In this document: positions 4,566 through 55,078 of the stretch, in pieces
How the letters are laid out: every line of letters starts with the position of its first letter
Numbering within the stretch: the first letter of the stretch is position 1
Origin: a virus
IMG/VR virus record: IMGVR_UViG_3300036832_000827
Coordinates: 4,916-68,915 of that record
Direction: 5' to 3' (one strand)
Length of the DNA stretch: 64,000 bases
Notes under the pieces: generated by a model
Databases searched by the model: none
Told to the model about the DNA's origin: nothing
What the model saw: only the letters and a program-made list of their open reading frames with translations
Program-made: the position numbers and the translations under genes

Positions 4566-4938
4566 TTGATTTCTCCTTATCTTTTTGGGTAGCGGCTTCA
4601 GTTAAAAATTCGGCAGCGACTGCGGGCGGCATCCTCTCGGGCGGTCTGTCAACCAGGCCGTCGCGTTTCTGCATCTCGTGAAATATCGCTTCTCTCGGAC
4701 TGACAATGCGGACGCCGGGCGTCGTTCTCGGCTGCGGCGGCGGTTGTCCGCGCGGGGCGTTCGGTATCGGATAATTCGGTGTAGGTTCGCCTGCGAGCGT
4801 GTCGTAGATCTTCTCGGGCTTTGGTTTGAACTCGATCTTTTCGGCGGCGCGCCCACGGCGTTCGCCAAGGAGGTAACCGACCGCAAATAGCAAAATGCCA
4901 ACTGCTGCCGCGAGCGCCGTGATCGTCCAGTTTTCCAT
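4540..4938 (-). CDS. Hypothetical membrane-anchored protein, 132 aa
   Basis: N-terminal hydrophobic helix (ITALAAAVGILLFAVGYLLG); first gene after the leader RNA. Confidence 0.6.
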   Translation of the reverse strand: MENWTITALAAAVGILLFAVGYLLGERRGRAAEKIEFKPKPEKIYDTLAGEPTPNYPIPNAPRGQPPPQPRTTPGVRIVSPREAIFHEMQKRDGLVDRPPERMPPAVAAEFLTEAATQKDKEKSNGYNRQEG

Positions 4939-4944
4939 TGCCCT

Positions 4945-5033
4945 AAAAAAAGAAATCGCCGCCCGGCGACCAGCGTGTTTATCACTGGTCTTTGGACGGC
5001 GATGACTCAGATCTGTGCCTGAGTTATGACCGA
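4945..5033 (-). promoter_or_regulatory. Late-operon leader RNA copy 1 (GCACAGAT hairpin followed by terminator hairpin and U-tract)
   Basis: Minus strand TCGGTCATA-ACTCAG-GCACAGAT-CTGAGT, then TCGCCGTCC...GGGCGGCGA-TTTCTTTTTTT; second copy at 54907-55007. Confidence 0.65.
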
Positions 5034-5247
5034 TAGGATATGTTTTTCAAGGGCGACAAGTTAGTGAAGAGACGTTTCATTTATCAAGATGTAGTCCCTT
5101 CGGGCATTCGCCCCTCTGGTTTTTGAAGGGCGCCGGGCTTGTTTCTAAGCAGTCATTCCCATTTTCGTTCTTTGATGCTTAGCTAAAACCCGGACTGCAC
5201 GCCCTCTGGTTTTGGATTATCACCTAGTGTGATACAAAAATGCAACT

Positions 5248-5288
5248 GAAAATAAAAGGGCCGGGAGTCTCCCACACCACCCGGCCCA
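5248..5288 (-). terminator. Rho-independent terminator downstream of the tas/array-1 transcript
   Basis: Minus strand GGGCCGGG...CCCGGCCC followed by TTTTATTTT. Confidence 0.6.
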
Positions 5289-5339
5289 CTTTCAAGGTTG
5301 CGGATTTTGGGGTCCGCACTCCTTGAAAACTTAAAATTG

Positions 5340-5892
5340 CTCGTTCACTGTGTGTGTAAGATCGCGATAATTAACTCGTTCGGACGTTGTGAAATTCAAC
5401 ATTTATAACTCGGTCATTGCAAATGAAATTCGCTCAGTATCACTCGTTCCCCACCTCTGAAATTCAGACTTGCTCACTCGGTCATCTTTCTTGAAATTCA
5501 GTTTTTCTAACTCGTTCTCATGGAATGAAGATCTAAACCCTTTAACTCGTTCTACGTATATGGAATTCTCGTATGCTAACTCGTTCGAATTTCAGGAAAT
5601 TCTTAATTCGTAACTCGGTCGCTGACTTTTGAAGATCGCACTCGTTACCTCGGTCGTCGATTTTGAAGATCAGCCTTGTTACCTCGTTCTATTGCCATGA
5701 AATTCCTTCGGCTGTAACTCGGTCATATATTATGAAATTCCCGCAGATTCACTCGTTCCTCAGTATTGAACATCTGTACAATTCACTCGGTCTTTGACCT
5801 TGAAATTTCCTTTACCATCACTCGTTCTAATTACTTGAAAGTCTCACCATTTAACTCGGTCGTAATATTTGTAACATCACCCTCAATCACTC
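5340..5892 (-). ncRNA. TIGR-like dual-repeat guide array 1 (16 units, ~34 nt period)
   Basis: On + strand alternating t(a/c)actcg(g/t)tc - 8 nt variable - tgaaattc (variants tgaagatc, tgtaagatc) - 8 nt variable; first repeat overlaps the stop codon of the Nop-domain gene. Confidence 0.9.
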
Positions 5893-6756
5893 AAAAGGGT
5901 CGTTCGGCGGCGCGATGTAATCTGCGTGCCCTTGTATCGCAATCGTGTACGGAGCGGCCGGACCCTTACCGAATCTATATCGATAGGCGATCTCGTGCCA
6001 GTGCGAAATAAAGAGTTTGACGGCTTTACGCTTTGCCCTGGCATGGATCTGTGCGGGCGGCAGCTTCCCGCTTGTGTAGTGGCCAAAGGCGTCGGTGTCG
6101 GTGCGGAACTTCTTCTGGCTTAGGATCTTTTTTGCCTCGTCGGCGTAGGCACCGGCGTCGTTTTGGGCCGTGTAGTATTCTTTGGCCTTCAGATAGATCT
6201 TTCCGTAAAAATCTTCTTCGCGTCCGGATTGTTTTACGAACGATTCGCCGATCTTCCAGAACAATACTTTCAGCCGGGCATTGAACGGCCGGCGCTCGCC
6301 TTTTTTCCATTCGACGTTCGGGTTGAGCCCTCCAAAGCTTTCGATATGGCCGGCTGTCGGAGCTTTTTCGATGTCGATATGAGCAAGGAGCCCGGCGGCG
6401 AGTACACCGGCGATCCCGGTTATCGACATCGACCAGCGGCCGACGGCATCGCTCTCCGCATAGGCGGTAAGAGCTCGTTGCAGTTGTTTTTCGAGATAGG
6501 CGGTGTTGTCGGCCAGCCAGCCGATGACGGCATGGGGCGTATCGGCCGCACCCGATGCCCGGACGCGTGCCGCTGCCCGGATGCGCTCTTCCTGGAGCGT
6601 GTAGTAGTAATCGACCAGAAAGCGGATCTCGTCTTTTGAGAGCGTGGCGGTCGAATCCTTGAGGTCTTTTGTGAGTTTAATGATGCCGGCCTGTTCGACA
6701 TCGGGGCCGGGTTCCGGGTCGGCGTATCTGATTTTTGTCGCTGTTGCTGTTCTCAT
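5887..6756 (-). CDS. tasA: TIGR-associated Nop-domain protein lacking a nuclease domain (TasA-like), 289 aa
   Basis: IS110/Nop-like C-terminal region (SITGIAGVLAAGLLAHID...GHIESFGGL...FNARLK...LPPAQIHARAKRKAVKLFISH) preceded only by a coiled coil; no DEDD RuvC or HNH motif seen; abuts the dual-repeat array. Confidence 0.85.
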   Translation of the reverse strand: MRTATATKIRYADPEPGPDVEQAGIIKLTKDLKDSTATLSKDEIRFLVDYYYTLQEERIRAAARVRASGAADTPHAVIGWLADNTAYLEKQLQRALTAYAESDAVGRWSMSITGIAGVLAAGLLAHIDIEKAPTAGHIESFGGLNPNVEWKKGERRPFNARLKVLFWKIGESFVKQSGREEDFYGKIYLKAKEYYTAQNDAGAYADEAKKILSQKKFRTDTDAFGHYTSGKLPPAQIHARAKRKAVKLFISHWHEIAYRYRFGKGPAAPYTIAIQGHADYIAPPNDPFE

Positions 6757-9195: not shown

Positions 9196-9213
9196 TTAGT
9201 TAAAAGTGGAAGA

Positions 9214-9900
9214 CGTTCGCATCTGTTGTAAGATCTTCAGTTATCACTCGGTCAATTTCGATGAAATTCGCCTGCTGTGACTCGGTCGCCGTTAATGAAA
9301 GTCGTTTTCTGTCACTCGGTCACTTTGATTGAAATTCCGTGCGGATCACTCGTTCGTTTCTCCTGAAATTCTCGCGCAATCACTCGTTCGCTTCATTTGA
9401 AATTCTTTAAGAATAACTCGGTCATTTCACATGTAAGATCGGACTTCGTAACTCGGTCGAGCTTCTTGAAATATCAGCATGGATGACTCGGTCACTACAA
9501 ATGAAAGATCGTAATTCCTAACTCGGTCATTGTGTTTGAAGGTCATCTTGTGTAACTCGTTCTATTATCATGAAAATTCTTCGCAGGTAACTTGGTCGCA
9601 TCTTTTGAAATTCACGGGAAATCACTCGTTCATACGCAATGCACTTCGAATCCTGTAACTCGGTCATATTTTATGAAATTCACTTCAGGCAACTCGGTCA
9701 TATATCATGAAATTCATATAACATCACTCGGTCGCACCCTATGAAATTCTCTCGCGTTCACTCGGTCAGCTTTTCTGAAATTCGCTCCAAATAACTCGTT
9801 CGTCTACAATGAAGTTCCCCACTAATAACTCGGTCATATATCATGAAATTCATTCAACATAACTCGTTCCCATTTCATGTAAGATCCTTGTCAATTAACT
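9214..9900 (-). ncRNA. TIGR-like dual-repeat guide array 2 (20 units)
   Basis: Same edge (t(a/c/g)actcg(g/t)tc) and loop (tgaaattc) repeats with 8-nt variable spacers as array 1. Confidence 0.9.
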
Positions 9901-24880: not shown

Positions 24881-25087
24881 TTATTTCCCCCCTCTCGGGT
24901 CGAACATCTCGATAAATTCAAAAAGACACTTCGAGCACATATCGGGATCTGGTCCGCCGTCCTTTCGCGTGACCTCGATCCCGATGTTAAGGAACTCGTT
25001 ATGGAAGACCTGCGAGTCGCGAAGCTCACGGTTCTCGTCGGATTCGCTCAGCTCGCCCTTGCAGAAATCACAAAATATTTTTGTCAT
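24881..25087 (-). CDS. Small zinc-finger protein, 68 aa
   Basis: CDFC...CSKC; ATGA coupling. Confidence 0.55.
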   Translation of the reverse strand: MTKIFCDFCKGELSESDENRELRDSQVFHNEFLNIGIEVTRKDGGPDPDMCSKCLFEFIEMFDPRGGK

Positions 25088-25524
25088 ACGTCTATCTCAA
25101 ATAGCAGTTTGCGTTGCAGTGGATGCGTGTCGACGCGTGGTCTTGATCCGCGCGACCAGGAACCGCCACCACGTTCCCCGATACATTTCCATCCCGCCGC
25201 TTTGACGCTTGTTCCCTTCTCGGTATCGAGTATGTAAGTGATCGCTCGGCGATAACCCATTTCGCGTGCGGCTCGCCAGGCTGCGGCATACAATATCGAA
25301 CACGCATTCCGCGTTCCGTCCGTACACAGCCTGACCACTTCCACGGTCCAGCCGTCGTCATAATTTCTCGACACCGGCCGTCCGACGATCGCCACTCCGA
25401 CGATCCTTTCGCCGTTCGACGCTCCGAGCGAGAACTTGTGGCCGCGTGGAACCCCATGATGCCGATGATGCTCTTCGACAAACGCATAAGCCTCGTGCAA
25501 AGTTATCGGAACGATCTCAAGCAT
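25084..25524 (-). CDS. XF1762-family protein (Mom/GNAT-like)
   Basis: PITLHEAYAFVEEHHRHH...GVAIVGRPVSR..DDG.TVEV.RLCTDG..NACS.LY. Confidence 0.75.
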   Translation of the reverse strand: MLEIVPITLHEAYAFVEEHHRHHGVPRGHKFSLGASNGERIVGVAIVGRPVSRNYDDGWTVEVVRLCTDGTRNACSILYAAAWRAAREMGYRRAITYILDTEKGTSVKAAGWKCIGERGGGSWSRGSRPRVDTHPLQRKLLFEIDV

Positions 25525-26210: not shown

Positions 26211-26350
26211 CGTTCCAGGTCTTTGTAAAATCGGACGCGATCACTCGTTCAGTCTTTCTGTAATATCGGCAATCCTCACTCGTTCGTCGTCGCTGTAGTA
26301 TCGGTCTGCTTCACTCGTTCGCAATCGATGTAAGATCCATCTTCTTCACT
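26211..26350 (-). ncRNA. TIGR-like mini-array 3 (4 units)
   Basis: cgttc-8-tgtaaaatc-8-tcactcgttc-8-tgtaatatc-8-tcactcgttc-8-tgtagtatc-8-tcactcgttc-8-tgtaagatc-8-tcact. Confidence 0.85.
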
Positions 26351-26983: not shown

Positions 26984-27460
26984 TCAATGAGCATTCATAT
27001 TTAGCCGAAGCCAACTCCGAATGTCATCGCCCCTGATCCGTCCGCCTGCCTTTGGCAGATCGAATACCGCACTCTCCTTGAATCTCTGGTGATACTTCCA
27101 GGCTGTGAAGGTCACCCTGTTGCCGTCCCAAAGTCTGACGGTCGGCTTCTCGCCCAGCTCGCGTGCAAAGAGCTCCAGGATATTCAGAGCGAAATCTGCG
27201 GGCCCCGATCCTGCGTATCCCCACTCCATGCCGGTCGGCGAGTGATGGCGAAATACCTGAAAGATGTTGAAGTGCAGGCCGTCCTCGCGGCGCTCGCAGA
27301 TGATGTCCTTCGCCGCATGATCGAACGGAAGATCGACCCGATCACTGCTCTCGAAATTGTTCGCGTTGGCCGCGCAGATCGCCCCCATTCCGCGCTCGAC
27401 GCTCTCGCTCAGGCTCAGAGGCCGGTTACATTTCAAGCATGTAGCTGTTGCAGTCGTCAT
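26984..27460 (-). CDS. DUF6011-like zinc finger + DUF6166-like protein, 158 aa
   Basis: CLKCNRPL...SVERGMGAIC; HHSPTGMEWGYAGSGPADFAL. Confidence 0.6.
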   Translation of the reverse strand: MTTATATCLKCNRPLSLSESVERGMGAICAANANNFESSDRVDLPFDHAAKDIICERREDGLHFNIFQVFRHHSPTGMEWGYAGSGPADFALNILELFARELGEKPTVRLWDGNRVTFTAWKYHQRFKESAVFDLPKAGGRIRGDDIRSWLRLNMNAH

Positions 27461-33268: not shown

Positions 33269-36200
33269 TTATCGTGCTTCCTTGGCCTCTTGACGGCGCA
33301 TAGCTTCCCGTTGGGCTCTGATGGCGGCTCGTGCCTTCTCTCTTTGGACGGCAGTTTTCAGTAGACGCGGGAAAGCTATATCGAGTGCTGACTTAACGAA
33401 TGCCAGGCCCTCGCCTTTTGTGAGTTCCTGCTTCTTGTCGCGGTTGACGCCCAGGCTGTGCATGATGTCGCCAAGCGCCGGGTTGAGATCCAGGCCTCCT
33501 TCGAGGATGTGGCGGCCGATGCCGGCAGTCTTCGGCAGATCAGGTGGTTTGAAAAATTGGGCTCCATACTGTCCTTCGCGATCTCGAAGGGCCATGAGGC
33601 TCGGTTCGTATCCGGTCGCTGCTATCGATGCCGCCCTTACGACCGGTGAGCTGGTCAACGGGCCCGCTATCGAGTTGATCGTGCCGGTCGCTCCCGATTC
33701 GAGCATCTGCTCTTTTGATCCGCCAAGGATCGCCGTGTCGTACGCTCCTGAGATGCCGAGTGCTCTCGCCCCTCTTTCGACGAGCGGCGAGAACATCCCC
33801 AGTCCGACGTAGGCGGTCTTGTCATTGTCGCCCCATATCATTTTCGCGAGCGGTGAGTTGCGGTCCTTCGGATTTAGCGGGATCTGCAAAAAGCGGCTGT
33901 CCTTGTCATTCCAGGGCATGACTCCGCGATAGGCGTAAGACGCTGCCGCCCACATCCCGAGCATCCCCAGTACGCCCCCGGAAAACTGCTGTTGAGCTCG
34001 ACGAGCCATACGCCAGCCAGGGCTTAGACCTTCGGTTGGCAACGGCGTTTTATTTAGCCATCCCAGGACGCCGTTCTTTAGCATCTGGCTGCCAGCGGTA
34101 AAGAATGGGGCTAGTTGCGAACCTTTGAGCGATCGTGACAGTTGCGATTCGAGAGCACGGTTATAGATCCCGAGCTTCTGCACGAATTCCGCTTTCTCAT
34201 AGCGCGATGCGTTGGGGTTGATCGTTTCGGCAATTTTCCACATCACGATGCGAGAGCGCGTGTCGATCCCTTTCGGGCCTGTCAAAAACGGCCTGATCGG
34301 ATTCCATGTATGCTCGATCCCGAGTTGTGCAGCCAGCTTTTTCGAAAACGTCTTGTTGGCGAACTCGCTCGGAAACGCGCCGCTTTCGGCCATGTCCCTA
34401 AGCATGGCGGGGTCGCCTTTTAGCGGGTCGGTCATCGCCACATGGATGATCCCAGTAAGGATCTTTGTCGCCGGTGTATTGCCGATCGTGCGTGAAAGAA
34501 TATCCTGGCCTATGAATGGCGTTCCGCCGATAAGTCCGCCGACGAGATTCGCTGTATGGTAAATGGGCTCAAGAAGTCCGGTAGCACCAAACATGTTTAG
34601 CCGATTGAGTGTTTTGTTGACGATATTTGGGTCGTCCGGGTGTTCGAGCACGGGCTTTAGTTCCTTTGCCAGCCACTTCGGCACGGTGTACGGAACATTG
34701 CCGATCCGAAGGAAAGTCGTTGGTTGGCCCATGATCTCCGATGGCGGCTCGGCACCCGGCTTTAACGGTTTAGCGAGTCCCGCTATCTCCACCGAATCCT
34801 GCAAGTCGCTCATGTTCTGGTCTCTCAGGGCCTTTGCGATCTCAGGTGTCGGATTGGCTCCCGCGAGTATCTGCGCCTGGATCTGAGCGGTGGTCGTGGC
34901 ATACTTGACGACCTCGTCGGCCGCTTCCGGATCGACGTGGCGCAACTCGTTGAGGTTTTTGTTTACGAAGTTCTCAAGCGAGCGGGCCGACCTCATCACC
35001 TTGCCGCTCGTCAAGGCGTCATCGAGTTTGCCGAGGATCTTACGGGTAGCTGAGAAGCTTAATTTTTGTTGTACAGGACGTGTTTCAGGAACCTTTCCTT
35101 GTTGAAGTTCGGATGGCTGGGGTCGACCTTCACCATAAGCCGCTTGGCCCTGGCCGCCGCCTGGTCCCCGTGTTTCTCCCCGATCTCGTAGCTCAGTAGG
35201 AACTTGGCCTTTTCCTTCGGACTCCATCCCTGGGAGATGGCCTTGAGATTCGCTAGTGCGGCTTCTTTGCTCATATCGTTGAATTGCTTTTTCTGTTTGT
35301 TTACTGATGCCGCCAAGGGCTTGTCTGACCCGCTCTGCGGTTACGCCTTCAGAGCGTAGGTGCTTTTCGTATGCTAATTGTAACTCAGCAACCTCTCTGC
35401 GCGTCAAACCGAGATCGAGATGGCCGTCATCCCGATAGGCTTTGTTCATGATCTCTTTATACATGCCGGCATCGGAGATGTTCCGGTAGCTGGGCACGGT
35501 TCGTAAATTGGCCTCAGCTTTCTTGTAGGCCTGAAGTCCTCTGCCTTTGTCCGATATTTTGCCGCCTAGCAGTTCCTCGTGGGCTTGGTGAAATCGCTCT
35601 TCCTGGCGGGTTCCTTCGGACAGCGTAGGATAGTTCTCATCGACCAGACCAGTCGGAAGACCGTGTTCAGGGTGAACATTATCCTCAAAGGTCTTGATGA
35701 TCCGATCGAGGCCGTCGGCCATTTCGGGATGCTCCTTGCTGACAGAATCTCGCGCCAGCTTCAGCGCGTTGGTTACGTCTGCAACGTCTGCCGGCAGCAT
35801 CTGAAGTCCCAGGAACCTCTCGTCTGGCTCTACGCCGCCCAGTCTTCTGAGGAGGCGGTGCATTAACTCCAAGGCCGGTACGTTCATCTCGATCATCGGA
35901 CTTTTTGGATCTTTGGTGAACGTGGCGTCTCGCAGCAATTCACTATCCTTCTTATCCGCCAGGCCCGCTTGTTCCTGCCTAAGCTGATCGACCTCCTTGT
36001 TATAGTTTTCGATATGAGCCCGGTCCTCGGCCGGAGTCTCGGGTTCGGGAAGATGTTCGGCCGCATTGAAATTGATGTCGCCGGGGGTGATCGTCCTGTC
36101 ACCTTTGGGAGGCCTGAACAGATCTGACTGGGCCTCTTTCCGAGAGCTCTTCGCCAGGCCCTCTTCTGTTTCCCGCTTACCGATCTCGCCGATGTCCGCG

Positions 36201-39200
36201 ACCGTGAATCCCCCCTTGTCGCGAAATAGGGCGAGTTCCTTACCGGGATTCTTCTCTTGAAGCTCGGTTAATTTTGCTTTGGCGGTTGCCTTATCGGTCG
36301 GTTCTATGAGGCGATCGATCCTCTCGGGCGCGAATGGCGTCTCTTCGGCCTTGGTCTCGGGTTCGATCCGCTCGGCCGCATTGCTGTCTGCGATCTTTTT
36401 GAATTGCTCTGGCGTGAGTAGGTGGACATCTCCAGCCTTATTTTCGAGTTCGACCTTTCCCTCATCGTTGATGCCTTCAAAACGATAGGTGCCTTTCGGG
36501 AGGCCGGAAACGTCGCGGTTGGTCGCGATGCGATCGCCTTCCCGGAACTCCGTCCCTTTCTTTGTGGTGATCGCTGCCTCGGCTGGCTTGGTGACGGCTG
36601 GCTCTTCTCTCGGTGCTTCGGCCTTTGAGACTTCGGGCGGCTCGGTCACTTTCGCCGATGGCTCGGCGGGCTTGGCTTCGACTTGGCCCGTTGCCTCATC
36701 GACAAATTTATAGATCGCGTCGATCGCATTGTCGCGGGCCTCTTCGGATTTGAAGTAAAGGGTCTTTGTACGGTCGTTGGCAAAGTCCAGTTGGAGCCCG
36801 GCGTTTGCAACACCTTCAATCTGCGCTTTTCCGCCTTTTGTGATCCCGGTAATTGATGTCGGCTTTTCTTCTGAATAGGAAATACCCCTAAAGTTCTCTG
36901 GATATTCGCTAAGAAATCCAAGAGCGTCATTGTTTTTAGCTCCGAGACCGTGAAGGGCGCTGTTGTCAAGGCCCTCGATGTCGCGGGCCATTATTCGTGG
37001 TTTTTGAGTCGATGGCTCGGCAGGCTTCGCGGCGCGTTCGGCTGCTGCGGCCTCGAACGTCTGACCAGGTGTGGACAGAAGATCCTTGGGGTCCATCTTC
37101 CCACTAAGGATGTCGTCGATGGCTGCGGCGTCCTTTTCAGGATCGAGATGGTATTTCTTGATTAGGTCGGCGCGGCGTGTCGCCTCATGCTCAGCCTCAA
37201 CGGCGGCAGCTTTCTGCTCGGCGATCGTCGTGGTCGGCTTCCCTGGCTTGGTTTCTTCGGTGGTTTTTAGTTCTTCCGGCTTTCCAGCTCGTGCCTCAGG
37301 CGATCCTTCCTGATCTGGCCGCGAAGCTTGTTTATCCTCTTGTTTAGGGCCTCGCTGTCCTGTCTCATCTTCAAGTTCCCTTCTTTCAATGATCTCTCTA
37401 CGAGCTTGCTGATATATCCGGTCGAGGTTGGTTTCCTTGAGGGGTTTTCCATTCGCTAAGAGACTATCATAGAGCTCCGACTTCTTAAAGCCCTTAATGC
37501 TGTCGTGCGGCAACGGGTCTTCCTCTGTCCCATATTTTGCTATAACGTCCTTCAGCCAGCCTGGGAAAAACTTACCTTCGCGAAAGGGAATGATCTGGTT
37601 TGTTATGAACGCATCGGCGGCTTGAATGGTGTCCAGAAATGCATCGGCGGTCTTGCCGTCTTTAGGCAGCGCGTCACGGTGATTGGCAATCCAGTCAAGC
37701 CACTCTTCGGGCGTCATGTACGACGAGCGCTCCTTGCCGAACTGCTCCTGGGCCATCTTGTCGCGGAAAGCGGAAAACGCTGTTTTGAAAGCGGCGTGGT
37801 CGGCGTCGGCCGGCAACGCGTGGTCTCCCAGGCCGATCGCTTTAAGTAGCTGGTTGACCATCTTGATGCGGTCCGCCTTCTCCGCGTCGGGCATGGCTCC
37901 TTCGAGGCCAAAGCGGTCGATCATGTAGTTGTTGACCATCCCGTGAGGTCCGGGTATGGGCAATTCTTTAAGTCCTTTGACCTGGTCGACGGAGATCCCT
38001 AATTTCTCCGCGATGGCGTCGTCCGTCTTGCCGTCGCGCTTCATCCGGCGCGCTTCTCTTGTGGCCTCTGGCGTGAGTGGCTCGGGTTTGCCGGGAAAGA
38101 GTCCTGGCACTTCGCCAACTCCGGCACCCACGGTCGCGGGTTCGCCTTCCTTGGCAGGTTCGGGTTTTACTTCTTCAGCTTTAGGGGTTTCAGCGGCGGG
38201 GGCTGCGGCAGTGGTCGCGGCGCCGGGGGCGGTTTCGGCTCGTTCATGATCTGCGCGTGGTTCGTTCTCAAGATCCGGCCCAGCACCCTCGGGCTGAACT
38301 CCCTGCCGTGCTTCGTTATAAGCCTGGAATATCGCATCGCCGTGGGTAGCTCCACTTTCGGCGTCGGTGGCAAGGGGTTCAAGGCCGTGTTCGAGCTGCT
38401 TGTCGTCGTAGGCTTGTCTAAGTCGTCTGACGTCGGGGTCGGATTCGTTGAATCTGAGGTTGCCATTCGGGTCATAGTCTACTCCTTCGTCGTTATCGAT
38501 CCTATCGCGTATTTCGTCCAGGATCTTTTGAGCTTCCGGGTCTTGGAGAAAGTTCTTCGTGCTCCGGATCAGCGCGGCCTGTCTTCGGGCGTACTCTCCT
38601 GCGGCTTCCGGAGCGTTGTCACGCTTGCGGACATATTCCTCTTCGGCTGCGGCGTAGTCGGTGTTGTCGTAAAGCTTCTCGAAATCATCCTTCGAAAAGT
38701 GCAGGCCGCGTCCCGTTTCCTTGTGACTGGCGACGTCGTCTTCGATAGCCGTCCACAACTGATTGCCATTGGCATCTCGTCGGTCGGGCCAGAGGTCGCG
38801 CAGGTAGCCGGCATCCCAGGCCATCACGGCCATTTGCTCGGCGGTAAAGGGCGCGTTTTGGTTCTTAAGGCCGGAACTGCCGGTCTCTTTGTCCGACAGA
38901 CGCCGGCCCTCGCCGCTGTCTCGTGATACTGGTCTGATCCCGCTTTGCCCGTCTCGCTTCTGGCGCACCCATTGGGAAAGCGACTTGACTCCCTGCGGCA
39001 CGGGCGGCTGCGTTTTGCCGCCTTCTTCGGTGCCGGGTCCGCCCATTGCCCATGGCGGGACTTCTTCCTCTGTTGGCGGCTTCGCAGGTTCGGCTGCGAT
39101 TTCCGCTTCACCCTCAGATGGGACGTGTATTGGAAGCGATGCGTGTGCGGTGGGTGTGATTTTGTCGCCTTCTGGCCTCTCAAAGTGAATTATCACATCT

Positions 39201-42200
39201 GCGGCGGCCCCAGTTCCGGCTCGCTCCCCGACGCCTTCGCGGGTTTCACGAATGTTTACTTCGACGGGCTTGCCTCGATGTGGGCCGGTCGTCTCCCAAT
39301 CTTCAACGTCATCGGGATGTGGTCTGTATTCCTGTTTGAATTGTTCCCAAGATATAACGCGCCCACCTAGTGTGGTCTTTCTGCCGTCAGCTCGAAATCC
39401 ACTGAAAACCGTTTTTCGAACGCCGTCCTTTTCAGTTGTTTCCGCTGTCCACGTACCGCCTGACGGGTTCGTGCCGCTTGTGGGGCTTTCTGTCGGCGTC
39501 TCGGCCTTTGGCGTCGGCTGGGCTACTTCTTCTCTTCGAAGTCGCTCACGCTCGTCGCTGAGCGCGGCGTGTTCGTGGGTGCGGTCTGGCAGCGGCAGGC
39601 GGTTATCGCCCGTGATCGCGGCGATACGTTTGTCGAGCTCCTTGATGGCTCCTGGCCGGCCGTGTTTCTCTACAAGAGCGTTCGCCACTTGTTTTGCGTT
39701 GGCCTTGGCCTTGTCTTTGTTGGCTTGCTCTTCGGCTGCGGCCTTGGCCTTTTCTTCCGTTGCGGCCTTGGCTTTGGCCACTCCTTCGAGGCGGCCGGGC
39801 TCGTTCGCGATGTAGTCTGCGGCGTCTGTTTTTGGAACGTTCGCATCCGGCAACTTGCTGCGGTAGACTTTCTCACCCTTCGGGCCGTAATTGAACCGGC
39901 GCGCTTCCAGGGAACCGGTCGGCGTCTGGCGGCCGGTAAGCTCAACCATTCCGTGCTGCGGGTGCATGAAGGTCTGACCTGCGAGATCGCTCGTCGCCTT
40001 TGGCGTCGGCATCTTCCCGGAGTCGAGTTCTGCCCTGCCTCGTTCGCTTATCAGTTGGTGAGCGTAATCCTCGTATGAAAGTCTATACGTGTCGTCCGAA
40101 TTGAAGTCGACGATCCCTGCCTTGTGAAGTTTGCGGAGAGCTTTCTGGACCTGGTCGAGTGGTGCGTTGTTGAGTGCTTTCGCGATCTCCGTAGAGGACA
40201 TTCGCTTGTCGCCAGTCAGGGCCCTGATGATCGGCTCGGCGTGCTTATCCCTGTTGATCGCGTATGCGACATCCTGGACGCGCGGGTTTGTTTTCCGCAG
40301 AGCTCCTTCTTCGGGCTCTTTGATCCCTGCGATCGGCTCTGCGCCGGGTGCTGTCGCGGTCGGCTCCGCTGCTGCGGTCGGTGCTGCTGTCGGCGCTGCT
40401 GGCTCGGGAATGTTAATTCCCGCTTTCCTCGCAGCGTCACGCAGCGCGGCCGGATCGCGAAGTCTGCTGGCGTCCGGTTTCACCGATTTTACGATCTTGC
40501 TGGCCTGCTTTGGATCTACTCCATTTGCGACCAGATATTTGTGTGCGTCCTCTGCCCCGAGTGGCTCTTCTGCGGGTGCAGCGGCCGTAGTCGGCTCGCC
40601 TGTCGGCGTTGTCGTCGGTTCGCCTGTCGGCGTCGTCGGCGCTGCGGGTGGAGTCTCGGTTGGTGGCGTCGGTGGAATTATCGGTTGGCCGGCGATGCCA
40701 AGCGGTTCTGTCGCCGTTCCTGTCGGCGTCGGCGTCGGGGCTCCTGGCGTTTCCTCGGTCGGCGGCGCTTGATATTGGTCGGTAAGCCCGAGGGGCTCGG
40801 CTCCGAACCTACGCGGGCCTTTGACGCCTGGCGCTTCTGGTGCTTCTGGATATACGAGCGGCGGTTTTGCCTGATTGCGCCAGTCATTGACCGTTCTTAA
40901 CTCGGCATCGATGTCGTCGATGCGAGAGCCGCTTCCCGGTTTGGGAACCTGTATGTCTTCCTGGGCCGCTGTCGAATTCGGAAAGAGACGCTGATAATTC
41001 GCGTACTCCGCATCTGTCATCGGCCGGAGTAGCCCTTGCTTCTCCTTATAGAGGTTGTCCTCATGCTGGCTGAGCACGCCGATATGTCTCGGCCCGATGA
41101 TCGCCTGCTGCACGCCGTCCGGCACCTTGCCCGTAACGTCGGTCAACGTGATGCCTCCGCCTTCCTTTTTGGTGATAAGGACATCTCTCGGATTCCCCTG
41201 GTTGTCCGGCAAGCGGATAAACTTGTTGTCCAGTTTTTCGAGAGTTTTGATATCGGCTTCCGTGGGGTCGGCTGTTGTTCTCTTTCCCTTACCGGCCATC
41301 GCAAAGTGCAGGATGCCCATGAGAAGAGCTTGGTCCAGCGCCTCATCCGATGTCCCGCCTTGGGCCTTCACCTGACCGTAGGTGATACTTCCTATGGTTG
41401 CGGCTCCGAGACTTTCGTTGGTGAGCCTTGAGATGATCTGTCCCGCTCCGGCTGTCGTGTCGAGGCCGACGCTTGTGGCCAGCTTTTCGATCAGCGGTCC
41501 GGTCAATCCTTCGAGGATCGCCGGCGTCTCAAAAACTGCTCCGGTGAGACCGTCCTTCCAGGATTGCATAACCATCTCGCCGAACGGTCTGTTGGTGTTC
41601 GTCAAAGCTCCGTGAATGGCAAAGCCAAGGATCGGATCGCCGCCCGCCGCTACCGTTGAGCCGATGATTCCGGGAAAATCGCCAAGCCCCTGCGCGGCTG
41701 CGACGACCCTGCTGAAATTCGGATTTGGCTGGCCGTTTGGGAGCTTCTCGGGATTTGCTGCCTGGGCGGCGATGCCTGCCCCTTCGGACAATCTATCAAG
41801 CCAGGCGCTGGCGTTCCCGCCTGTTGCCCAGTTAAGCACCGGCTGCGTGTAGCGTAAGGCTCCCGCTCCCATCGCCGCTATGTCCCTGACCAACTCAAGC
41901 CCAGGCTGCGTGCCAACACGATTGAGAAGATTTTCCTTCCCTATCGTCTGACCGGCCTGCTGCATCTGAGCGATCTGCTGGTCGGTCATCTTTGTCTTGT
42001 TGAAATCGATGTCCTGAGTCAGCAAGTCTCGTTTGGCTTGGGCGACAAGTGCCGGGTTGCCTGCTACGGCGTAGGGCATGAGGTAGCGCTCAGCCGCCAG
42101 GGAACCGAGTTGCTGCTGCTGCTGCTCTGTCTTAGCTTTCTGTAAGTTGCGGAAGCTTCCGTAGTTTCCTAAAACGTTACTGACGAGGTCGTTGAGTTCC

Positions 42201-43732
42201 TTCGTGTGAGTACTTACATAATCCTGGTCGGGAAAGCCTGCCTGCTGCTTGATAGCGTTATAGGCTTTGGCTTCGTCATTCGCATCGGTTCTGAGACCTG
42301 CCTGCTGGTCGGCAAATATCTGTGCGAGATAGTCATCGTTGCCGTTGTTCTTGAGCAGCGTCGCTTTGTAGTCCTGCGATACGCCCTGCGCCTGTTTTGT
42401 CTGTCCGTACGCGTCAAGGATCTTTTGTATGAACTGGCTTGGGACAAGCTGCTGATGGGCCTGCCCGGTTTGAGCATTCGACTTTGCCAGATCCTCAAGG
42501 TTGCTCTCGGTCGTGCCGCCGCCCATCTTGTCGGCGTACTGCATCGGCTGTCGATCGACGTAAGCCTTCACAAAGTCGTACGGAACGCCCGTCGCCTGTG
42601 AGATACGGTACGTACTGGCGTCTTTTATGAACTGCGAATAGGTTTGGTCGGCCGGTTTTTCTCTCAGGTCTATTCCAAACTTGATGTCTTGCGGCGCGTA
42701 CTGGTTCGTGACAACGTTGGCCATCTGGTCCGGCGCTGGCGGCTGAGCGGGTTGTGCTGGTGCTCCGGGAGCTCCGGGCGCCGTGGGCGCTCCGGTTGGC
42801 TGCTGCTCTCCGGGCTGTCTGTATGTGATCTGACTGGGATCGATCTGCTGGCCGCCCTCGGTGTAGCCCGTATCCGGGGCTACCTCCGTGTTGGCTGAGC
42901 CGGTAGGCTGTGCGGCCGCCTTGAAAAAATCGTCCCGCGAAATTGGCGTCTGGCCTTGATCCTGGGTGAACTTCAAATACTGCTGATAGTCATCCTCGCT
43001 CGCCGGCGCAGCATTTTCGGCTGGAGCCTGTGTTGCGATCGGAAGTGTCGGCGCTACTGTCGTCGGCGCCGGCCGCGCTCCGGGAAGTGTCGCGGGCGAT
43101 GGCTGCTGTCCAAGGAACTGCGCAAGGCTTGGAGCATTCGCTCTGGACGCGGCCAATTTCGCGCTGATGTTGCGGACGTAGTTCTGTGTTTCTGGAACGT
43201 TTGGGATCTGCCCGTTTCGAAGGGCCTGCTTATATTCGCCCCCGTTGTATCCGGCAAGTGCGAGATTTTCGTCGCCGCCAAACTGATCGAGAAGTTTCCG
43301 CATGTAGCGGGCCTGGCCGTTGATCGATTGGATAGGATCGGTTCGATCGGTGACGCCGTACTTTGCGGCGGTGGCGGGCATGAACTGACCTGCCCCAAGC
43401 GCTCCGGCTGAGGAGCCGCGCCTTCCGTAGAGCACGTCCGGGCTGAAGCTTGTTTCCTGGCGGCCTTGTTCGAGAAGCAAGTTCGGGTCGACGTCGTTCG
43501 CGCGGCCGGCCTGTTCATAGAGACTGTCGAGTTTTGGGTGGCCGCTCGTCGTGTGAAGCAAACTAAAACCGCTCGGAAGATCTACGTTGTCGGCGTATGA
43601 CGGATATTTGCGTACGACGCGCGCCGCAAGATCGCTGTTGTCAAGATCGGCGTACTCGGGATATTTATCCTTGATCCGCTGAGCGAAATCGTCGACGGAC
43701 AGTTTCTGGTCAGTGTTGTCGCCATCGGCCAT
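33269..43732 (-). CDS. Giant internal virion/DNA ejection protein with N-terminal lytic transglycosylase, 3487 aa
   Basis: SLT motifs QETSF, GALGAGQFMPATA, ALAGYNGG within the first ~200 aa; last gene of the virion module. Confidence 0.75.
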   Translation of the reverse strand: MADGDNTDQKLSVDDFAQRIKDKYPEYADLDNSDLAARVVRKYPSYADNVDLPSGFSLLHTTSGHPKLDSLYEQAGRANDVDPNLLLEQGRQETSFSPDVLYGRRGSSAGALGAGQFMPATAAKYGVTDRTDPIQSINGQARYMRKLLDQFGGDENLALAGYNGGEYKQALRNGQIPNVPETQNYVRNISAKLAASRANAPSLAQFLGQQPSPATLPGARPAPTTVAPTLPIATQAPAENAAPASEDDYQQYLKFTQDQGQTPISRDDFFKAAAQPTGSANTEVAPDTGYTEGGQQIDPSQITYRQPGEQQPTGAPTAPGAPGAPAQPAQPPAPDQMANVVTNQYAPQDIKFGIDLREKPADQTYSQFIKDASTYRISQATGVPYDFVKAYVDRQPMQYADKMGGGTTESNLEDLAKSNAQTGQAHQQLVPSQFIQKILDAYGQTKQAQGVSQDYKATLLKNNGNDDYLAQIFADQQAGLRTDANDEAKAYNAIKQQAGFPDQDYVSTHTKELNDLVSNVLGNYGSFRNLQKAKTEQQQQQLGSLAAERYLMPYAVAGNPALVAQAKRDLLTQDIDFNKTKMTDQQIAQMQQAGQTIGKENLLNRVGTQPGLELVRDIAAMGAGALRYTQPVLNWATGGNASAWLDRLSEGAGIAAQAANPEKLPNGQPNPNFSRVVAAAQGLGDFPGIIGSTVAAGGDPILGFAIHGALTNTNRPFGEMVMQSWKDGLTGAVFETPAILEGLTGPLIEKLATSVGLDTTAGAGQIISRLTNESLGAATIGSITYGQVKAQGGTSDEALDQALLMGILHFAMAGKGKRTTADPTEADIKTLEKLDNKFIRLPDNQGNPRDVLITKKEGGGITLTDVTGKVPDGVQQAIIGPRHIGVLSQHEDNLYKEKQGLLRPMTDAEYANYQRLFPNSTAAQEDIQVPKPGSGSRIDDIDAELRTVNDWRNQAKPPLVYPEAPEAPGVKGPRRFGAEPLGLTDQYQAPPTEETPGAPTPTPTGTATEPLGIAGQPIIPPTPPTETPPAAPTTPTGEPTTTPTGEPTTAAAPAEEPLGAEDAHKYLVANGVDPKQASKIVKSVKPDASRLRDPAALRDAARKAGINIPEPAAPTAAPTAAAEPTATAPGAEPIAGIKEPEEGALRKTNPRVQDVAYAINRDKHAEPIIRALTGDKRMSSTEIAKALNNAPLDQVQKALRKLHKAGIVDFNSDDTYRLSYEDYAHQLISERGRAELDSGKMPTPKATSDLAGQTFMHPQHGMVELTGRQTPTGSLEARRFNYGPKGEKVYRSKLPDANVPKTDAADYIANEPGRLEGVAKAKAATEEKAKAAAEEQANKDKAKANAKQVANALVEKHGRPGAIKELDKRIAAITGDNRLPLPDRTHEHAALSDERERLRREEVAQPTPKAETPTESPTSGTNPSGGTWTAETTEKDGVRKTVFSGFRADGRKTTLGGRVISWEQFKQEYRPHPDDVEDWETTGPHRGKPVEVNIRETREGVGERAGTGAAADVIIHFERPEGDKITPTAHASLPIHVPSEGEAEIAAEPAKPPTEEEVPPWAMGGPGTEEGGKTQPPVPQGVKSLSQWVRQKRDGQSGIRPVSRDSGEGRRLSDKETGSSGLKNQNAPFTAEQMAVMAWDAGYLRDLWPDRRDANGNQLWTAIEDDVASHKETGRGLHFSKDDFEKLYDNTDYAAAEEEYVRKRDNAPEAAGEYARRQAALIRSTKNFLQDPEAQKILDEIRDRIDNDEGVDYDPNGNLRFNESDPDVRRLRQAYDDKQLEHGLEPLATDAESGATHGDAIFQAYNEARQGVQPEGAGPDLENEPRADHERAETAPGAATTAAAPAAETPKAEEVKPEPAKEGEPATVGAGVGEVPGLFPGKPEPLTPEATREARRMKRDGKTDDAIAEKLGISVDQVKGLKELPIPGPHGMVNNYMIDRFGLEGAMPDAEKADRIKMVNQLLKAIGLGDHALPADADHAAFKTAFSAFRDKMAQEQFGKERSSYMTPEEWLDWIANHRDALPKDGKTADAFLDTIQAADAFITNQIIPFREGKFFPGWLKDVIAKYGTEEDPLPHDSIKGFKKSELYDSLLANGKPLKETNLDRIYQQARREIIERRELEDETGQRGPKQEDKQASRPDQEGSPEARAGKPEELKTTEETKPGKPTTTIAEQKAAAVEAEHEATRRADLIKKYHLDPEKDAAAIDDILSGKMDPKDLLSTPGQTFEAAAAERAAKPAEPSTQKPRIMARDIEGLDNSALHGLGAKNNDALGFLSEYPENFRGISYSEEKPTSITGITKGGKAQIEGVANAGLQLDFANDRTKTLYFKSEEARDNAIDAIYKFVDEATGQVEAKPAEPSAKVTEPPEVSKAEAPREEPAVTKPAEAAITTKKGTEFREGDRIATNRDVSGLPKGTYRFEGINDEGKVELENKAGDVHLLTPEQFKKIADSNAAERIEPETKAEETPFAPERIDRLIEPTDKATAKAKLTELQEKNPGKELALFRDKGGFTVADIGEIGKRETEEGLAKSSRKEAQSDLFRPPKGDRTITPGDINFNAAEHLPEPETPAEDRAHIENYNKEVDQLRQEQAGLADKKDSELLRDATFTKDPKSPMIEMNVPALELMHRLLRRLGGVEPDERFLGLQMLPADVADVTNALKLARDSVSKEHPEMADGLDRIIKTFEDNVHPEHGLPTGLVDENYPTLSEGTRQEERFHQAHEELLGGKISDKGRGLQAYKKAEANLRTVPSYRNISDAGMYKEIMNKAYRDDGHLDLGLTRREVAELQLAYEKHLRSEGVTAERVRQALGGISKQTEKAIQRYEQRSRTSESQGHLPGMESEGKGQVPTELRDRGETRGPGGGQGQAAYGEGRPQPSELQQGKVPETRPVQQKLSFSATRKILGKLDDALTSGKVMRSARSLENFVNKNLNELRHVDPEAADEVVKYATTTAQIQAQILAGANPTPEIAKALRDQNMSDLQDSVEIAGLAKPLKPGAEPPSEIMGQPTTFLRIGNVPYTVPKWLAKELKPVLEHPDDPNIVNKTLNRLNMFGATGLLEPIYHTANLVGGLIGGTPFIGQDILSRTIGNTPATKILTGIIHVAMTDPLKGDPAMLRDMAESGAFPSEFANKTFSKKLAAQLGIEHTWNPIRPFLTGPKGIDTRSRIVMWKIAETINPNASRYEKAEFVQKLGIYNRALESQLSRSLKGSQLAPFFTAGSQMLKNGVLGWLNKTPLPTEGLSPGWRMARRAQQQFSGGVLGMLGMWAAASYAYRGVMPWNDKDSRFLQIPLNPKDRNSPLAKMIWGDNDKTAYVGLGMFSPLVERGARALGISGAYDTAILGGSKEQMLESGATGTINSIAGPLTSSPVVRAASIAATGYEPSLMALRDREGQYGAQFFKPPDLPKTAGIGRHILEGGLDLNPALGDIMHSLGVNRDKKQELTKGEGLAFVKSALDIAFPRLLKTAVQREKARAAIRAQREAMRRQEAKEAR

Positions 43733-54314: not shown

Positions 54315-54884
54315 TTAAACGCCCAGAGCTTTAAGTCCTGTGCCTCCGCCCACGGCGCTAAGTCCGCCCATCGCAAGCCCAGCGATCTGCTTCCAAAGCG
54401 GCACCTGCTGCGGTCGATTGTAGTAGCTCGTGCCGTAGGCGTTTTGAAGTTGGCCGTACATGTTCTGACGGTTGATCTGTTCCTGCGCGCTTTCCTGGCC
54501 AAGTCCGAGGGCCTGTGCCTTTGCCGTTTGAAAAGCGTTGCTCAAACCAGCGGCGCGCGTGTTGTACATGTTCATCGCTTTCTGCTGCTGGAGTTGGTTG
54601 TTGAATCCGGGAAGATTTGCGGTAAAGGCGTGGGTCGGGTCGCCGACTCGCTGTTGCGCCGCGAGCGAAGCCGCATTGCCGTAGATGTCCCCTGAGACAT
54701 CCATCCCCGGCGCGGTCATAATGTCCTGCTTTTGCCCCGTTGGGTTTATCCACGGCTGCCAATTGGTGAGTGATTGGTTTCCGACCTGTTCCAGAAGTGT
54801 TGGGGTGTTTGTCCCAGCGATGGCAGCCTGGGTTCTGGTATCTGTCGGCTTATCCGCCATTACCTTGTTGCCGCCTGAGCCCAT
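54315..54884 (-). CDS. Probable small ejection (pilot) protein
   Basis: MGSGG start, Q/A/N-rich, C-terminal Gly-rich hydrophobic helix; first gene after leader RNA copy 2. Confidence 0.5.
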   Translation of the reverse strand: MGSGGNKVMADKPTDTRTQAAIAGTNTPTLLEQVGNQSLTNWQPWINPTGQKQDIMTAPGMDVSGDIYGNAASLAAQQRVGDPTHAFTANLPGFNNQLQQQKAMNMYNTRAAGLSNAFQTAKAQALGLGQESAQEQINRQNMYGQLQNAYGTSYYNRPQQVPLWKQIAGLAMGGLSAVGGGTGLKALGV

Positions 54885-54906
54885 GTCGCGTTTCTCCTTC
54901 GACTCC

Positions 54907-55007
54907 AAAAAGAAAAAGCCGTCCGCGAAATACGAGATGACGGCTGTCGAAATCATCTCTTATTCGAGAACGGCGAAAGTTTAGATCTGTGCCTAAACTA
55001 TGACCGA
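54907..55007 (-). promoter_or_regulatory. Late-operon leader RNA copy 2
   Basis: TCGGTCAT-AGTTTAG-GCACAGAT-CTAAACT, then GCCGTTC...GGACGGC-TTTTTCTTTTT; upstream TGGACA-16-GATAAT promoter near 55048-55075. Confidence 0.65.
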
Positions 55008-55078
55008 AAACAATCTTGTCAATTACTACTGACTGTCGCCTGCTAAATTATCACGGCTTGCGCGCCCTTGTCCATACA

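What the first reader, a model, noticed from the sequence alone, without database searches (positions are those of the whole stretch)
4945..5033. Duplicated covarying leader RNA before both late operons (candidate antitermination/attenuator element)
Seen: two loci 50 kb apart (4945-5033 and 54907-55007) share TCGGTCATA and an invariant GCACAGAT loop closed by different but fully paired stems (ACTCAG/CTGAGT versus AGTTTAG/CTAAACT). Each is followed by a long GCCG...CGGC hairpin and U-tract just before the first structural gene, and each has a GTGATAAT -10 upstream. Inference: a structure-conserved cis-RNA switch for late genes, analogous in logic to nut/put/qut systems; I do not recognise it as a named family.
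Basis: partly seen in the sequence, partly recalled or inferred. Interest (0 to 1): 0.7.

Follow-up and report, generated by a model that had tools for sequence, protein, structure and literature searches.

The report
Hairpin-gated terminators before phage virion genes
An uncultured soil phage and two distant relatives place the same small RNA hairpin directly against a strong transcription stop signal in front of their head and tail gene blocks. This looks like an undescribed variant of the read-through switches that phages use to time late genes.

Summary
On the minus strand, both loci read TCGGTCATA, a 6-7 bp stem with a GCACAGAT loop, a long G+C hairpin and a U-run. These lie 6 nt (L1) and 22 nt (L2) before the first gene of the head block (portal, major head protein) and of the tail block. 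The two copies align without gaps over 38 nt. Six of their eight differences are three compensatory stem pairs.

Two relatives found by protein synteny, not by DNA, carry the same unit at the same places: a metagenome contig (L138) and an IMG/VR phage (G001/L140). Across the four copies, 28 of 28 stem cells pair and 6 of 7 pairs change on both sides. GGUCAUA (5') and CGCCG (3', at the terminator's foot) are invariant. The loop is not invariant (consensus C(A)AC-N-G-N). The upstream GTGATA box is conserved as TG-n-TA-nn-TT in three of the four copies and ends CC in L1, which fits an extended -10 promoter.

There is no Rfam match, no further copy, and no known antiterminator family among the 59 ORFs scanned (54 from this phage).

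Most likely this is a cis leader RNA that gates a terminator and is opened by an unidentified factor. That function is inferred; no expression data exist. This scan noted analogous cassettes in other phages.

The parts
5214..5223 (-). L1 promoter-like box GTGATAATCC. It reads TG-n-TAATCC, an extended -10 form whose last base is C.
   Evidence: One search gives the position. The box is aligned with three other copies. The sigma-70 scan did not flag it.
5034..5213 (-). Extra leader segment found only in L1 (about 180 nt). It holds two direct repeat pairs and an inverted repeat.
   Evidence: One search gives the repeats (D1 at 5112-5126 and 5202-5216; D2 at 5042-5055 and 5119-5132). One search gives only a weak sub-threshold Rfam hit.
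5025..5031 (-). L1 invariant single-stranded word GGUCAUA, immediately 5' of the hairpin.
   Evidence: Invariant in 4 of 4 copies.
5005..5024 (-). L1 hairpin P1: a 6 bp stem plus a G-U pair, with loop CACAGA.
   Evidence: Fold; covariation.
4997..5001 (-). L1 invariant CGCCG, which forms the 5' foot of the terminator stem.
4945..5003 (-). L1 intrinsic terminator: a long two-part hairpin (10 + 8 bp) followed by the U-run UUUCUUUUUUU. The ATG of the 132-aa membrane protein lies 6 nt further on, at 4938.
   Evidence: -31.1 kcal/mol, the most stable minus-strand candidate.
55045..55074 (-). L2 promoter: TGGACA, a 16-nt spacer, then GATAAT (10 of 12 matches). It can also be read as the extended -10 form TG-n-TAATTT.
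   Evidence: box conservation.
54999..55005 (-). L2 invariant GGUCAUA.
54979..54998 (-). L2 hairpin P1. The stem is GTTTAG/CTAAAC, extended by an A-U pair on the outside and a G-U pair on the inside; the loop is CACAGA.
54971..54975 (-). L2 invariant CGCCG, the 5' foot of the terminator stem.
54907..54974 (-). L2 intrinsic terminator: a three-part hairpin (7 + 4 + 8 bp) followed by the U-run UUUUUCUUUUU. The Shine-Dalgarno sequence AAGGAG and the ATG at 54884 of the 189-aa first tail-block gene follow.
   Evidence: -27.0 kcal/mol. The simple terminator scan missed it because its loop limit is 8.

Best explanation
Each locus is a late-gene leader. A promoter (extended -10 type, TG-n-TA-nnn-T) starts a short RNA whose conserved module is GGUCAUA, a 7-bp hairpin with loop C(A)AC-N-G-N, a 1-4 nt linker, and CGCCG. 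The CGCCG is the 5' foot of a strong intrinsic terminator that ends 6-22 nt before the first gene of the head block (L1) or the tail block (L2). No promoter fits between the terminator and the gene, so polymerase must read through the terminator to express virion genes.

I propose that the terminator keeps these genes off by default. An unidentified factor, most likely a phage protein, would recognise the GGUCAUA-hairpin-CGCCG module in the nascent RNA and hold the CGCCG foot. The lowest pairs of the terminator stem could then not form, and transcription would continue. This is local antitermination, one module per terminator.

Shown: the anatomy, its conservation, the covariation and the strand specificity. 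Inferred: the transcription start, termination itself, the factor and the mechanism.
For: 1. Independent recovery. Relatives were fetched through proteins, not through the DNA motif. L138 came from the 189-aa protein family and L140/G001 from the portal family. Gene order matches. Both carry the unit at the syntenic spot.

2. Covariation. 28 of 28 cells pair, 6 of 7 pairs change on both sides, and 0 of 500 shuffles reach the observed score. Versions slid by 1-3 columns pair in 18-57% of cells.

3. Specificity. A covariance model of the 43-nt core scores 52-59 bits on the four copies. The next hit in 88,632 bases scores 12.8 bits. There is only one copy in the whole 36-kb G001 record.

4. Terminators. 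All four copies are followed at 1-4 nt by a hairpin and a U-run. In my own scan, L1 and L2 are two of the three most stable minus-strand terminator candidates of the genome. That scan found no comparably stable candidate inside either virion gene block.

5. Flanks. GGUCAUA and CGCCG are invariant while the stem between them varies. RNAalifold pairs GGU with the GCC of CGCCG in 4 of 4 copies. In 3 of 4 copies that GCC is part of the terminator stem.

6. Upstream box. GTGATA-NN-TT is conserved in the aligned relatives, and the conserved positions are those that matter in extended -10 promoters. L2 is also flagged by the sigma-70 scan at 10 of 12.

7. Sense-strand G-U pairs (4 of 28 cells) argue for RNA rather than a duplex DNA palindrome.
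Against: - No transcript data exist, so starts, ends and read-through are all unobserved.
- There are only four copies from three phages.
- The GGU:GCC helix is invariant, so it has no covariation support and is only 3 bp.
- In L140 the minimum-energy terminator uses a second, downstream 5' arm, so CGCCG is not needed for the terminator there. The overlap argument therefore holds in 3 of 4 copies.
- The sigma-70 scan flags a promoter only at L2, and L1's box ends in C, not T.
- No candidate factor was found. 54 ORFs of this phage and 5 of G001 were scanned against Pfam, and none hit a Q, NusG/KOW, CAT-RBD, ANTAR or sigma family.
- The terminators could simply be leaky and set expression ratios.
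Confidence: 0.5

Rival explanations
1. Processive antitermination site of the nut or put kind. The hairpin module, alone or with a phage protein and host Nus factors, loads onto RNA polymerase and makes it resistant to terminators in general, not only to the adjacent one.
For: - There are two copies per genome, one per transcription unit. This resembles putL/putR of HK022 (passages read in PMC9378689) and nutL/nutR of lambda (recalled).
- A linear conserved word next to a hairpin resembles boxA + boxB (recalled).
- The operons behind the elements are long: more than 9 kb (to the end of the record) and about 21 kb.
Against: - In 4 of 4 copies the module lies 1-4 nt from its own terminator, and its 3' invariant word lies inside the terminator foot in 3 of 4. 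A processive site has no need for this.
- My scan found no comparably stable terminator candidate inside the operons that would call for processivity.
- Three of the four terminator stems are very long (18-22 bp). In one plasmid system, long stems made terminators resistant to processive antitermination (abstract of PMC10325885).
- The element is a single 20-nt hairpin, not the roughly 70-nt two-stem put RNA.
Confidence: 0.2
2. The promoter-to-terminator unit is a gene for a short stable RNA (about 110-150 nt; about 270 nt at L1) that acts in trans. GGUCAUA, complementary to U-AUG-ACC, or the loop would serve as a seed. The virion genes would be expressed by leak-through.
For: - A promoter-like box and a strong terminator bracket each unit.
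- The conserved single-stranded word and loop are the kind of feature seen in seeds.
- UAUGACC occurs at the start codon of the 324-aa gene at 28576 (read).
Against: - A 7-nt complement is expected by chance. GGTCATA occurs 14 times on both strands against 8.4 expected.
- The unit always sits directly in front of essential virion gene blocks with no other promoter, so read-through is required in any case.
- No RNA data are available.
Confidence: 0.1
3. An accessory to the terminator or a processing and stability element. The hairpin pauses polymerase to raise termination efficiency, or it marks an RNase cut that leaves the downstream mRNA with a protective 5' structure.
For: - The hairpin is constantly adjacent to the terminator.
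- Tandem hairpins at terminators are known (recalled).
Against: - Invariant 7-nt and 5-nt words flanking a freely covarying stem point to sequence-specific recognition, which a pause hairpin does not need.
- The third strong terminator of the genome, at the end of the array near 5257, lacks the module.
Confidence: 0.12
4. A DNA-level site: a late promoter or operator in which GGTCATA acts as a -10-like word and the inverted repeat binds a protein.
For: A TTGACA/TTGAAA/CTGAAA word lies 9-13 nt upstream of GGTCATA in all four copies.
Against: - That distance varies (13, 10, 9 and 9 nt by my count). No -10 hexamer at a legal spacing is conserved, and the scan flags nothing there.
- The arms of the inverted repeat change freely while staying complementary, and they include G-U pairs. 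This does not fit a protein operator on duplex DNA.
- A start inside the hairpin would still run into the terminator.
Confidence: 0.08

Closest known systems
BglG/SacY/LicT co-antiterminators with RAT RNA (features recalled, not from a call)
   Same: A small RNA hairpin element lies directly in front of an intrinsic terminator and shares nucleotides with its 5' arm. This allows a local, one-terminator switch, with one element per regulated terminator.
   Different: - The sequence and shape are not RAT.
- No CAT-RBD/PRD protein was found among the 59 ORFs scanned.
- The element sits in a phage and controls virion genes, not sugar operons.
- The overlap with the terminator foot holds in only 3 of 4 copies.
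Lambda late control: PR' promoter, 6S RNA, tR' terminator, Q/qut (features recalled)
   Same: A promoter is followed within about 100-270 nt by a strong terminator, just before the first late gene. The late genes depend on read-through.
   Different: - Q is recruited by a DNA site at the promoter and acts processively. Here the conserved, covarying feature is an RNA hairpin against the terminator.
- There are two units per genome.
- No Q-family protein was detected in the Pfam scans.
Lambda N with nut (boxA + boxB) (features recalled)
   Same: A conserved linear word next to a small hairpin with a conserved loop, in two copies per genome and upstream of terminators.
   Different: - The word is GGUCAUA, not the boxA consensus.
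- The stem is 7 bp with a 6-7 nt loop, not 5 bp with a GNRA-like pentaloop.
- It precedes late units, not early ones, and abuts the terminator.
HK022 put RNA (passages of PMC9378689 read)
   Same: A cis-acting nascent RNA in two sequence-related copies per phage, each downstream of a promoter, that suppresses termination.
   Different: - put is about 70 nt with two long stem-loops, needs no protein, binds the beta' zinc-binding domain and works over 10 kb.
- The element here is a single 20-nt hairpin fixed against its terminator.

Membership tests
Any Rfam 15 family | Covariance-model score at or above the family's gathering threshold | tested here: not met
   - Whole window at gathering threshold: 0 matches.
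- L1 region at E<=10: 7 weak matches. The best is YrlB at 27.5 bits against a threshold of 97, and it lies upstream of the element.
- L2 region: 0 matches.
Lambda N / nut | boxA-like word and a boxB hairpin (5-bp stem, GNRA-like pentaloop); features recalled | tested here: not met
   The word is GGUCAUA. The stem has 7 pairs and the loop is C(A)AC-N-G-N of 6-7 nt.
Lambda N / nut | A small arginine-rich N protein encoded by the phage | tested here: inconclusive
   No hit among the 54 ORFs of this phage scanned against Pfam. N-like proteins are short and diverse, and not all small ORFs were scanned.
HK022 put | An RNA of about 70 nt with two stem-loops that acts without protein (PMC9378689 passages) | tested here: not met
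   There is a single 20-nt hairpin, and the second hairpin is the terminator itself. Protein independence cannot be tested here.
Lambdoid Q / qut | A Q-family antiterminator gene | tested here: not met
   No Q family among the 54 ORFs scanned against Pfam, nor among the 20 scanned against PHROGs. A divergent Q cannot be excluded.
Lambdoid Q / qut | A promoter followed closely by a terminator, before the late genes | tested here: met
   Met as predicted anatomy only: a conserved TG-n-TA-nn-TT box 38-190 nt before the module and terminator.
BglG/LicT-RAT type local antitermination | The RNA element shares nucleotides with the 5' arm of the terminator | tested here: inconclusive
   The invariant CGCCG lies in the terminator foot in L1, L2 and L138. 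In L140 the minimum-energy terminator uses another arm.
BglG/LicT-RAT type local antitermination | A CAT-RBD (PRD) protein | tested here: not met
   No such Pfam family in any scanned ORF.
ANTAR targets | Two tandem hairpins with hexaloops carrying A at position 1 and G at position 4 (recalled) | tested here: not met
   There is one small hairpin, with loops CACAGA, CAACAGU and CACCGU.
TIGR guide RNA (tigRNA) of the neighbouring arrays | The unit structure edge repeat - spacer - loop repeat - spacer, or a target matched by the array's spacers | tested here: not met
   - The element has no such unit structure.
- No spacer pair matches the leaders with 2 or fewer mismatches; there are 41 scattered matches genome-wide at 3 or fewer.
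- The 9-nt complementarity between TCGGTCATA and some array units is not kept in G001, whose array has a different edge repeat and whose leader has AA in place of TC.

The most novel reading that the evidence does not exclude
This lineage of soil phages times its head and tail genes with a new, locally acting RNA switch. A minimal module, GGUCAUA + 7-bp hairpin + CGCCG, is welded to the foot of each terminator. An unknown small phage protein, or polymerase itself in the manner of put, clamps the module so that the terminator stem cannot close. This would be the first RAT-like, one-module-per-terminator antitermination system described for phage virion genes. Its RNA-binding partner would belong to no known family.
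Probability: 0.3. Interest if true: 0.65.

Novelty: new variant of a known kind. Interest (0 to 1): 0.5.

Why it matters
Late-gene timing by terminator read-through is textbook for lambdoid phages of E. coli but almost unexplored in uncultured soil phages. This case has a compact RNA element with clear covariation and invariant flanks. Its fixed geometry against the terminator makes a sharp prediction: disrupting and restoring the stem, or mutating the two flanking words, should switch read-through. If confirmed, it would add a new RNA family and probably a new RNA-binding antiterminator. It could also serve as a small, portable terminator switch for synthetic biology. Notes from this scan report similar cassettes with other motifs in other phages, so the design may be widespread.

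Tried and rejected
**Searches that found no further copies**
- DNA pattern scans for more copies:
  - Viral contigs, loose pattern: 117 or more stretches, and none with a paired stem apart from the window's own two.
  - Viral contigs, stricter patterns: 0.
  - Viral contigs, family-consensus pattern: 10 stretches, of which only G001 is real.
  - Genome contigs: 18 stretches. None showed arms complementary to each other when I read one search's print.
- Close-relative protein searches in viral contigs for the 189-aa and 132-aa proteins and for alignment A1 found none.
- There were no relatives in the deposited phage or plasmid collections, by DNA or by three proteins.
- The portal profile found no match in 5 genomes reached by handle or in 401 sampled Planctomycetota genomes. 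This means 'not found in those searched', nothing more.

**Expression data**
- No RNA holder was listed. Only one DNA run appeared, and it may be the source sample.

**Ideas considered and dropped**
- N4-like phage with hairpin promoters. My first guess came from the 3487-aa ORF. I dropped it because that protein has only an N-terminal SLT domain by Pfam, an integrase gene adjoins it, and the elements precede late genes, not early ones.
- Link to the TIGR arrays: rejected.
- Internal sigma-70 promoter using the TTGACA-like word: rejected because the spacing is inconsistent.
- A long-range complement in the L1 leader to the terminator's 3' arm (I3). I judged this a by-product of a near-palindromic G+C word.

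**Not seen**
- Supplementary files of the papers were not opened.

Full report
**Setting.** The window is bases 4916-68915 of a 68,915-nt IMG/VR virus record, rated 85% complete. Nearly all genes are on the minus strand. The record is a temperate phage with almost no annotated relatives:
- an integrase and a YqaJ-type exonuclease;
- a 3487-aa protein with an N-terminal SLT domain;
- a weak large-terminase match (707 aa) and a major head protein (433 aa);
- a 945-aa protein whose Atlas look-alikes are P22-type portals, which I treat only as a lead;
- a glycine-rich fibre-like protein.

L1 precedes a 132-aa membrane protein, a 158-aa protein, the portal and then the head protein. L2 precedes a 189-aa protein, a 178-aa protein, the fibre-like protein and the giant protein. 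So 'before both late operons' is a fair description: these are the head block and the tail block.

**The observation.** Read on the minus strand, both loci have the same order of parts: TCGGTCATA, a 6-bp stem (7-8 bp with end pairs), the loop word GCACAGAT, a linker, a long G+C hairpin, a U-run, and then the start codon after 6 nt (L1) or 22 nt (L2).
- The combined pattern occurs twice in the record, and its reversed control does not occur.
- Over 38 ungapped positions the copies differ at 8. Six of these are three compensatory double changes in the stem.
- Both fold as predicted, better than all 200 shuffles.
- GTGATAAT lies upstream of both.

**Relatives.** DNA pattern scans found no further copy. 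Protein searches did find relatives.
- The 189-aa protein has 9 homologues at 46-60% identity. One metagenome contig could be fetched (L138).
- The portal has 40 homologues at 45-74% identity. One IMG/VR record could be fetched (L140 = G001).
- Gene order is conserved around both.
- At the syntenic intergenic spot, each carries the same unit: GGTCATA, a 6-bp stem of different sequence, a similar loop, CGCCG, a hairpin with a U-run, and then the first gene.

Because these loci were found through proteins, the presence of the element in them is independent evidence.

**Structure.** In the four-way alignment, a 7-pair helix has 28 of 28 cells paired. Six of 7 pairs change on both sides and the seventh changes on one side (G-U to A-U). 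No shuffle of 500 reaches the observed covariation score, and sliding the partner by 1-3 columns drops pairing to 18-57%.
- Four cells are G-U pairs, so the helix is complete only on the sense strand. This favours RNA over a duplex DNA palindrome.
- A covariance model of the 43-nt core finds the four copies at 52-59 bits and nothing else above 12.8 bits in 88.6 kb.
- It finds only one copy in the whole of G001.
- Among 10 consensus-pattern hits in IMG/VR, only the G001 copy scores.

**What is and is not conserved.**
- Invariant: GGUCAUA directly 5' of the stem, and CGCCG 2-3 nt 3' of it.
- The loop is not invariant: CACAGA twice, CAACAGU and CACCGU.
- The upper part of the second hairpin varies in length and sequence but always pairs.
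- In L1, L2 and L138 its foot is the CGCCG word. In L140 the minimum-energy terminator uses a second arm further down.
- RNAalifold pairs GGU of GGUCAUA with GCC of CGCCG in all four copies. This 3-bp helix is invariant, so covariation neither supports nor contradicts it.
- Upstream, the box GTGATA-NN-TT is conserved in L2, L138 and L140, and L1 has GTGATAATCC. The conserved positions (TG, TA and a final T) are those that matter in extended -10 promoters; that rule is recalled, not from a call.
- The simple sigma-70 scan flags only L2, as TGGACA-16-GATAAT at 10 of 12.

**Why read-through must occur.** Only 6-22 nt, holding the ribosome site, lie between the U-run and the start codon. A promoter for the virion genes cannot lie behind the terminator. 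In my own scan, L1 and L2 are two of the three most stable minus-strand terminator candidates. The third ends the neighbouring guide array. The scan found no comparably stable candidate inside either virion block. Polymerase coming from the local promoter box or from upstream genes must therefore pass these terminators.

**Mechanism.** The fixed position of the module against each terminator fits a local switch. So does the position of its 3' invariant word in the terminator foot (3 of 4 copies), and so does the lack of strong internal terminator candidates. In such a switch a factor holds the module and prevents the lowest stem pairs from forming, as in RAT-type antitermination.
- A processive nut- or put-like role is the main rival.
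- In one plasmid system, very long terminator stems were reported to resist processive antitermination (abstract of PMC10325885). Three of the four stems here are 18-22 bp.
- put RNA is about 70 nt with two stems and works at a distance (passages of PMC9378689). It resembles this element in logic but not in form.
- No factor could be named. Pfam scans of 54 ORFs of this phage and 5 of G001, and PHROGs scans of 20 ORFs, show no Q, NusG/KOW, CAT-RBD, ANTAR or sigma family.

**Link to the neighbouring arrays.**
- *What is there.* The non-coding stretch upstream of L1 and a second one at 9200-9880 are 34-nt tandem arrays. They sit beside a 289-aa IS110-like protein. A 2026 preprint reports that nuclease-less TasA proteins act as RNA-guided repressors (abstract and sections 5, 11, 12 read).
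- *Test.* I checked whether the leaders belong to or are targeted by this system. No spacer pair matches them with 2 or fewer mismatches.
- *Complementarity.* The 9-nt complementarity of TCGGTCATA to some array units is not kept in G001. G001 has a Tas homologue (51% identity), but its array has a different edge repeat and its leader has AA in place of TC.
- *Verdict.* I reject the link.

**Known families and novelty.** There is no Rfam match at gathering or permissive thresholds. The element fails the defining features of nut, put and ANTAR targets. It shares only the promoter-terminator layout with the lambdoid PR'-tR' unit. Its closest functional analogue is RAT-type local antitermination, without the protein family.

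My literature searching was narrow. One full-text query on processive antitermination in phages, of which I read only the 12-row listing, and one on TIGR-Tas. Neither shows that this element is or is not in print.

Notes from this scan describe similar 'hairpin or box fused to a terminator before each late block' cassettes, with other motifs, in other phages. These are unchecked AI notes and I did not use them as evidence. I class the finding as a new variant of a known kind.

**Limits.**
- Four copies from three phages.
- No transcript data: no RNA holder was listed.
- The host is unknown.

Noticed in passing
window 5330-5900 and 9200-9880 (minus strand); smaller sets near 26250 and 28625: Two tandem arrays with a 34-nt period (about 16 and 20 units). 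Each unit is GA(A/C)CGAGT(T/G)A, 8 nt, GAATTTCA-like, 8 nt. They lie beside a 289-aa IS110/Nop-like protein (5887-6756). An earlier scan note reads this as a dual-repeat TIGR-Tas system. G001 has a Tas homologue (51% identity) followed by a short array with a different edge repeat.
   Followed up: partly
window 9563-9597 unit versus 55039-55053: An earlier scan note says one array unit nearly reconstructs the L2 promoter box region, with one substitution and a 1-nt indel. My ungapped search at 3 or fewer mismatches did not recover it and gave 41 scattered near matches genome-wide. By my own rough count, about 2 such gapped near matches are expected by chance.
   Followed up: partly
window 54885-54917 and L138:812-838: In L2 and L138 the terminator's U-run is predicted to pair with the purine-rich ribosome-binding site just downstream. 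Read-through mRNA might therefore have a partly masked ribosome site. This may be only a pyrimidine/purine coincidence.
   Followed up: no
window 5034-5213: The L1 leader is about 150 nt longer than the other three. It holds two direct repeat pairs (15 and 14 nt) and an inverted repeat. A weak sub-threshold Rfam hit to Y-RNA-like YrlB lies at 5048-5118 (27.5 bits against a threshold of 97).
   Followed up: partly
L138:775-800 and L140:3669-3682: A 14-nt word, ATTCGAAGTGATCT, is shared exactly by the second hairpins of an L2-type leader and an L1-type leader from different phages. It is paired in one and unpaired in the other. L1 and L2 carry similar GTGAT/GTCAT words at that place. No explanation so far.
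   Followed up: no
window 33269-43732: A 3487-aa ORF whose only confident Pfam domain is an N-terminal SLT lytic transglycosylase. It is probably a giant ejection or internal virion protein. It abuts an integrase gene on the other strand, whose stop (33268) is the base next to this ORF's stop (33269).
   Followed up: partly
window 25084-25524 and 26984-27460: A Mom-family protein (E 2.7e-06, just above the curated cut-off) and a DUF6011/DUF6166 protein in the early region.
   Followed up: no
L140:2355-3161: In G001 a GH25 lysozyme gene lies between the terminase and the leader. In the window's phage that interval instead holds the array island, so the island sits at a different place in the two phages.
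   Followed up: partly
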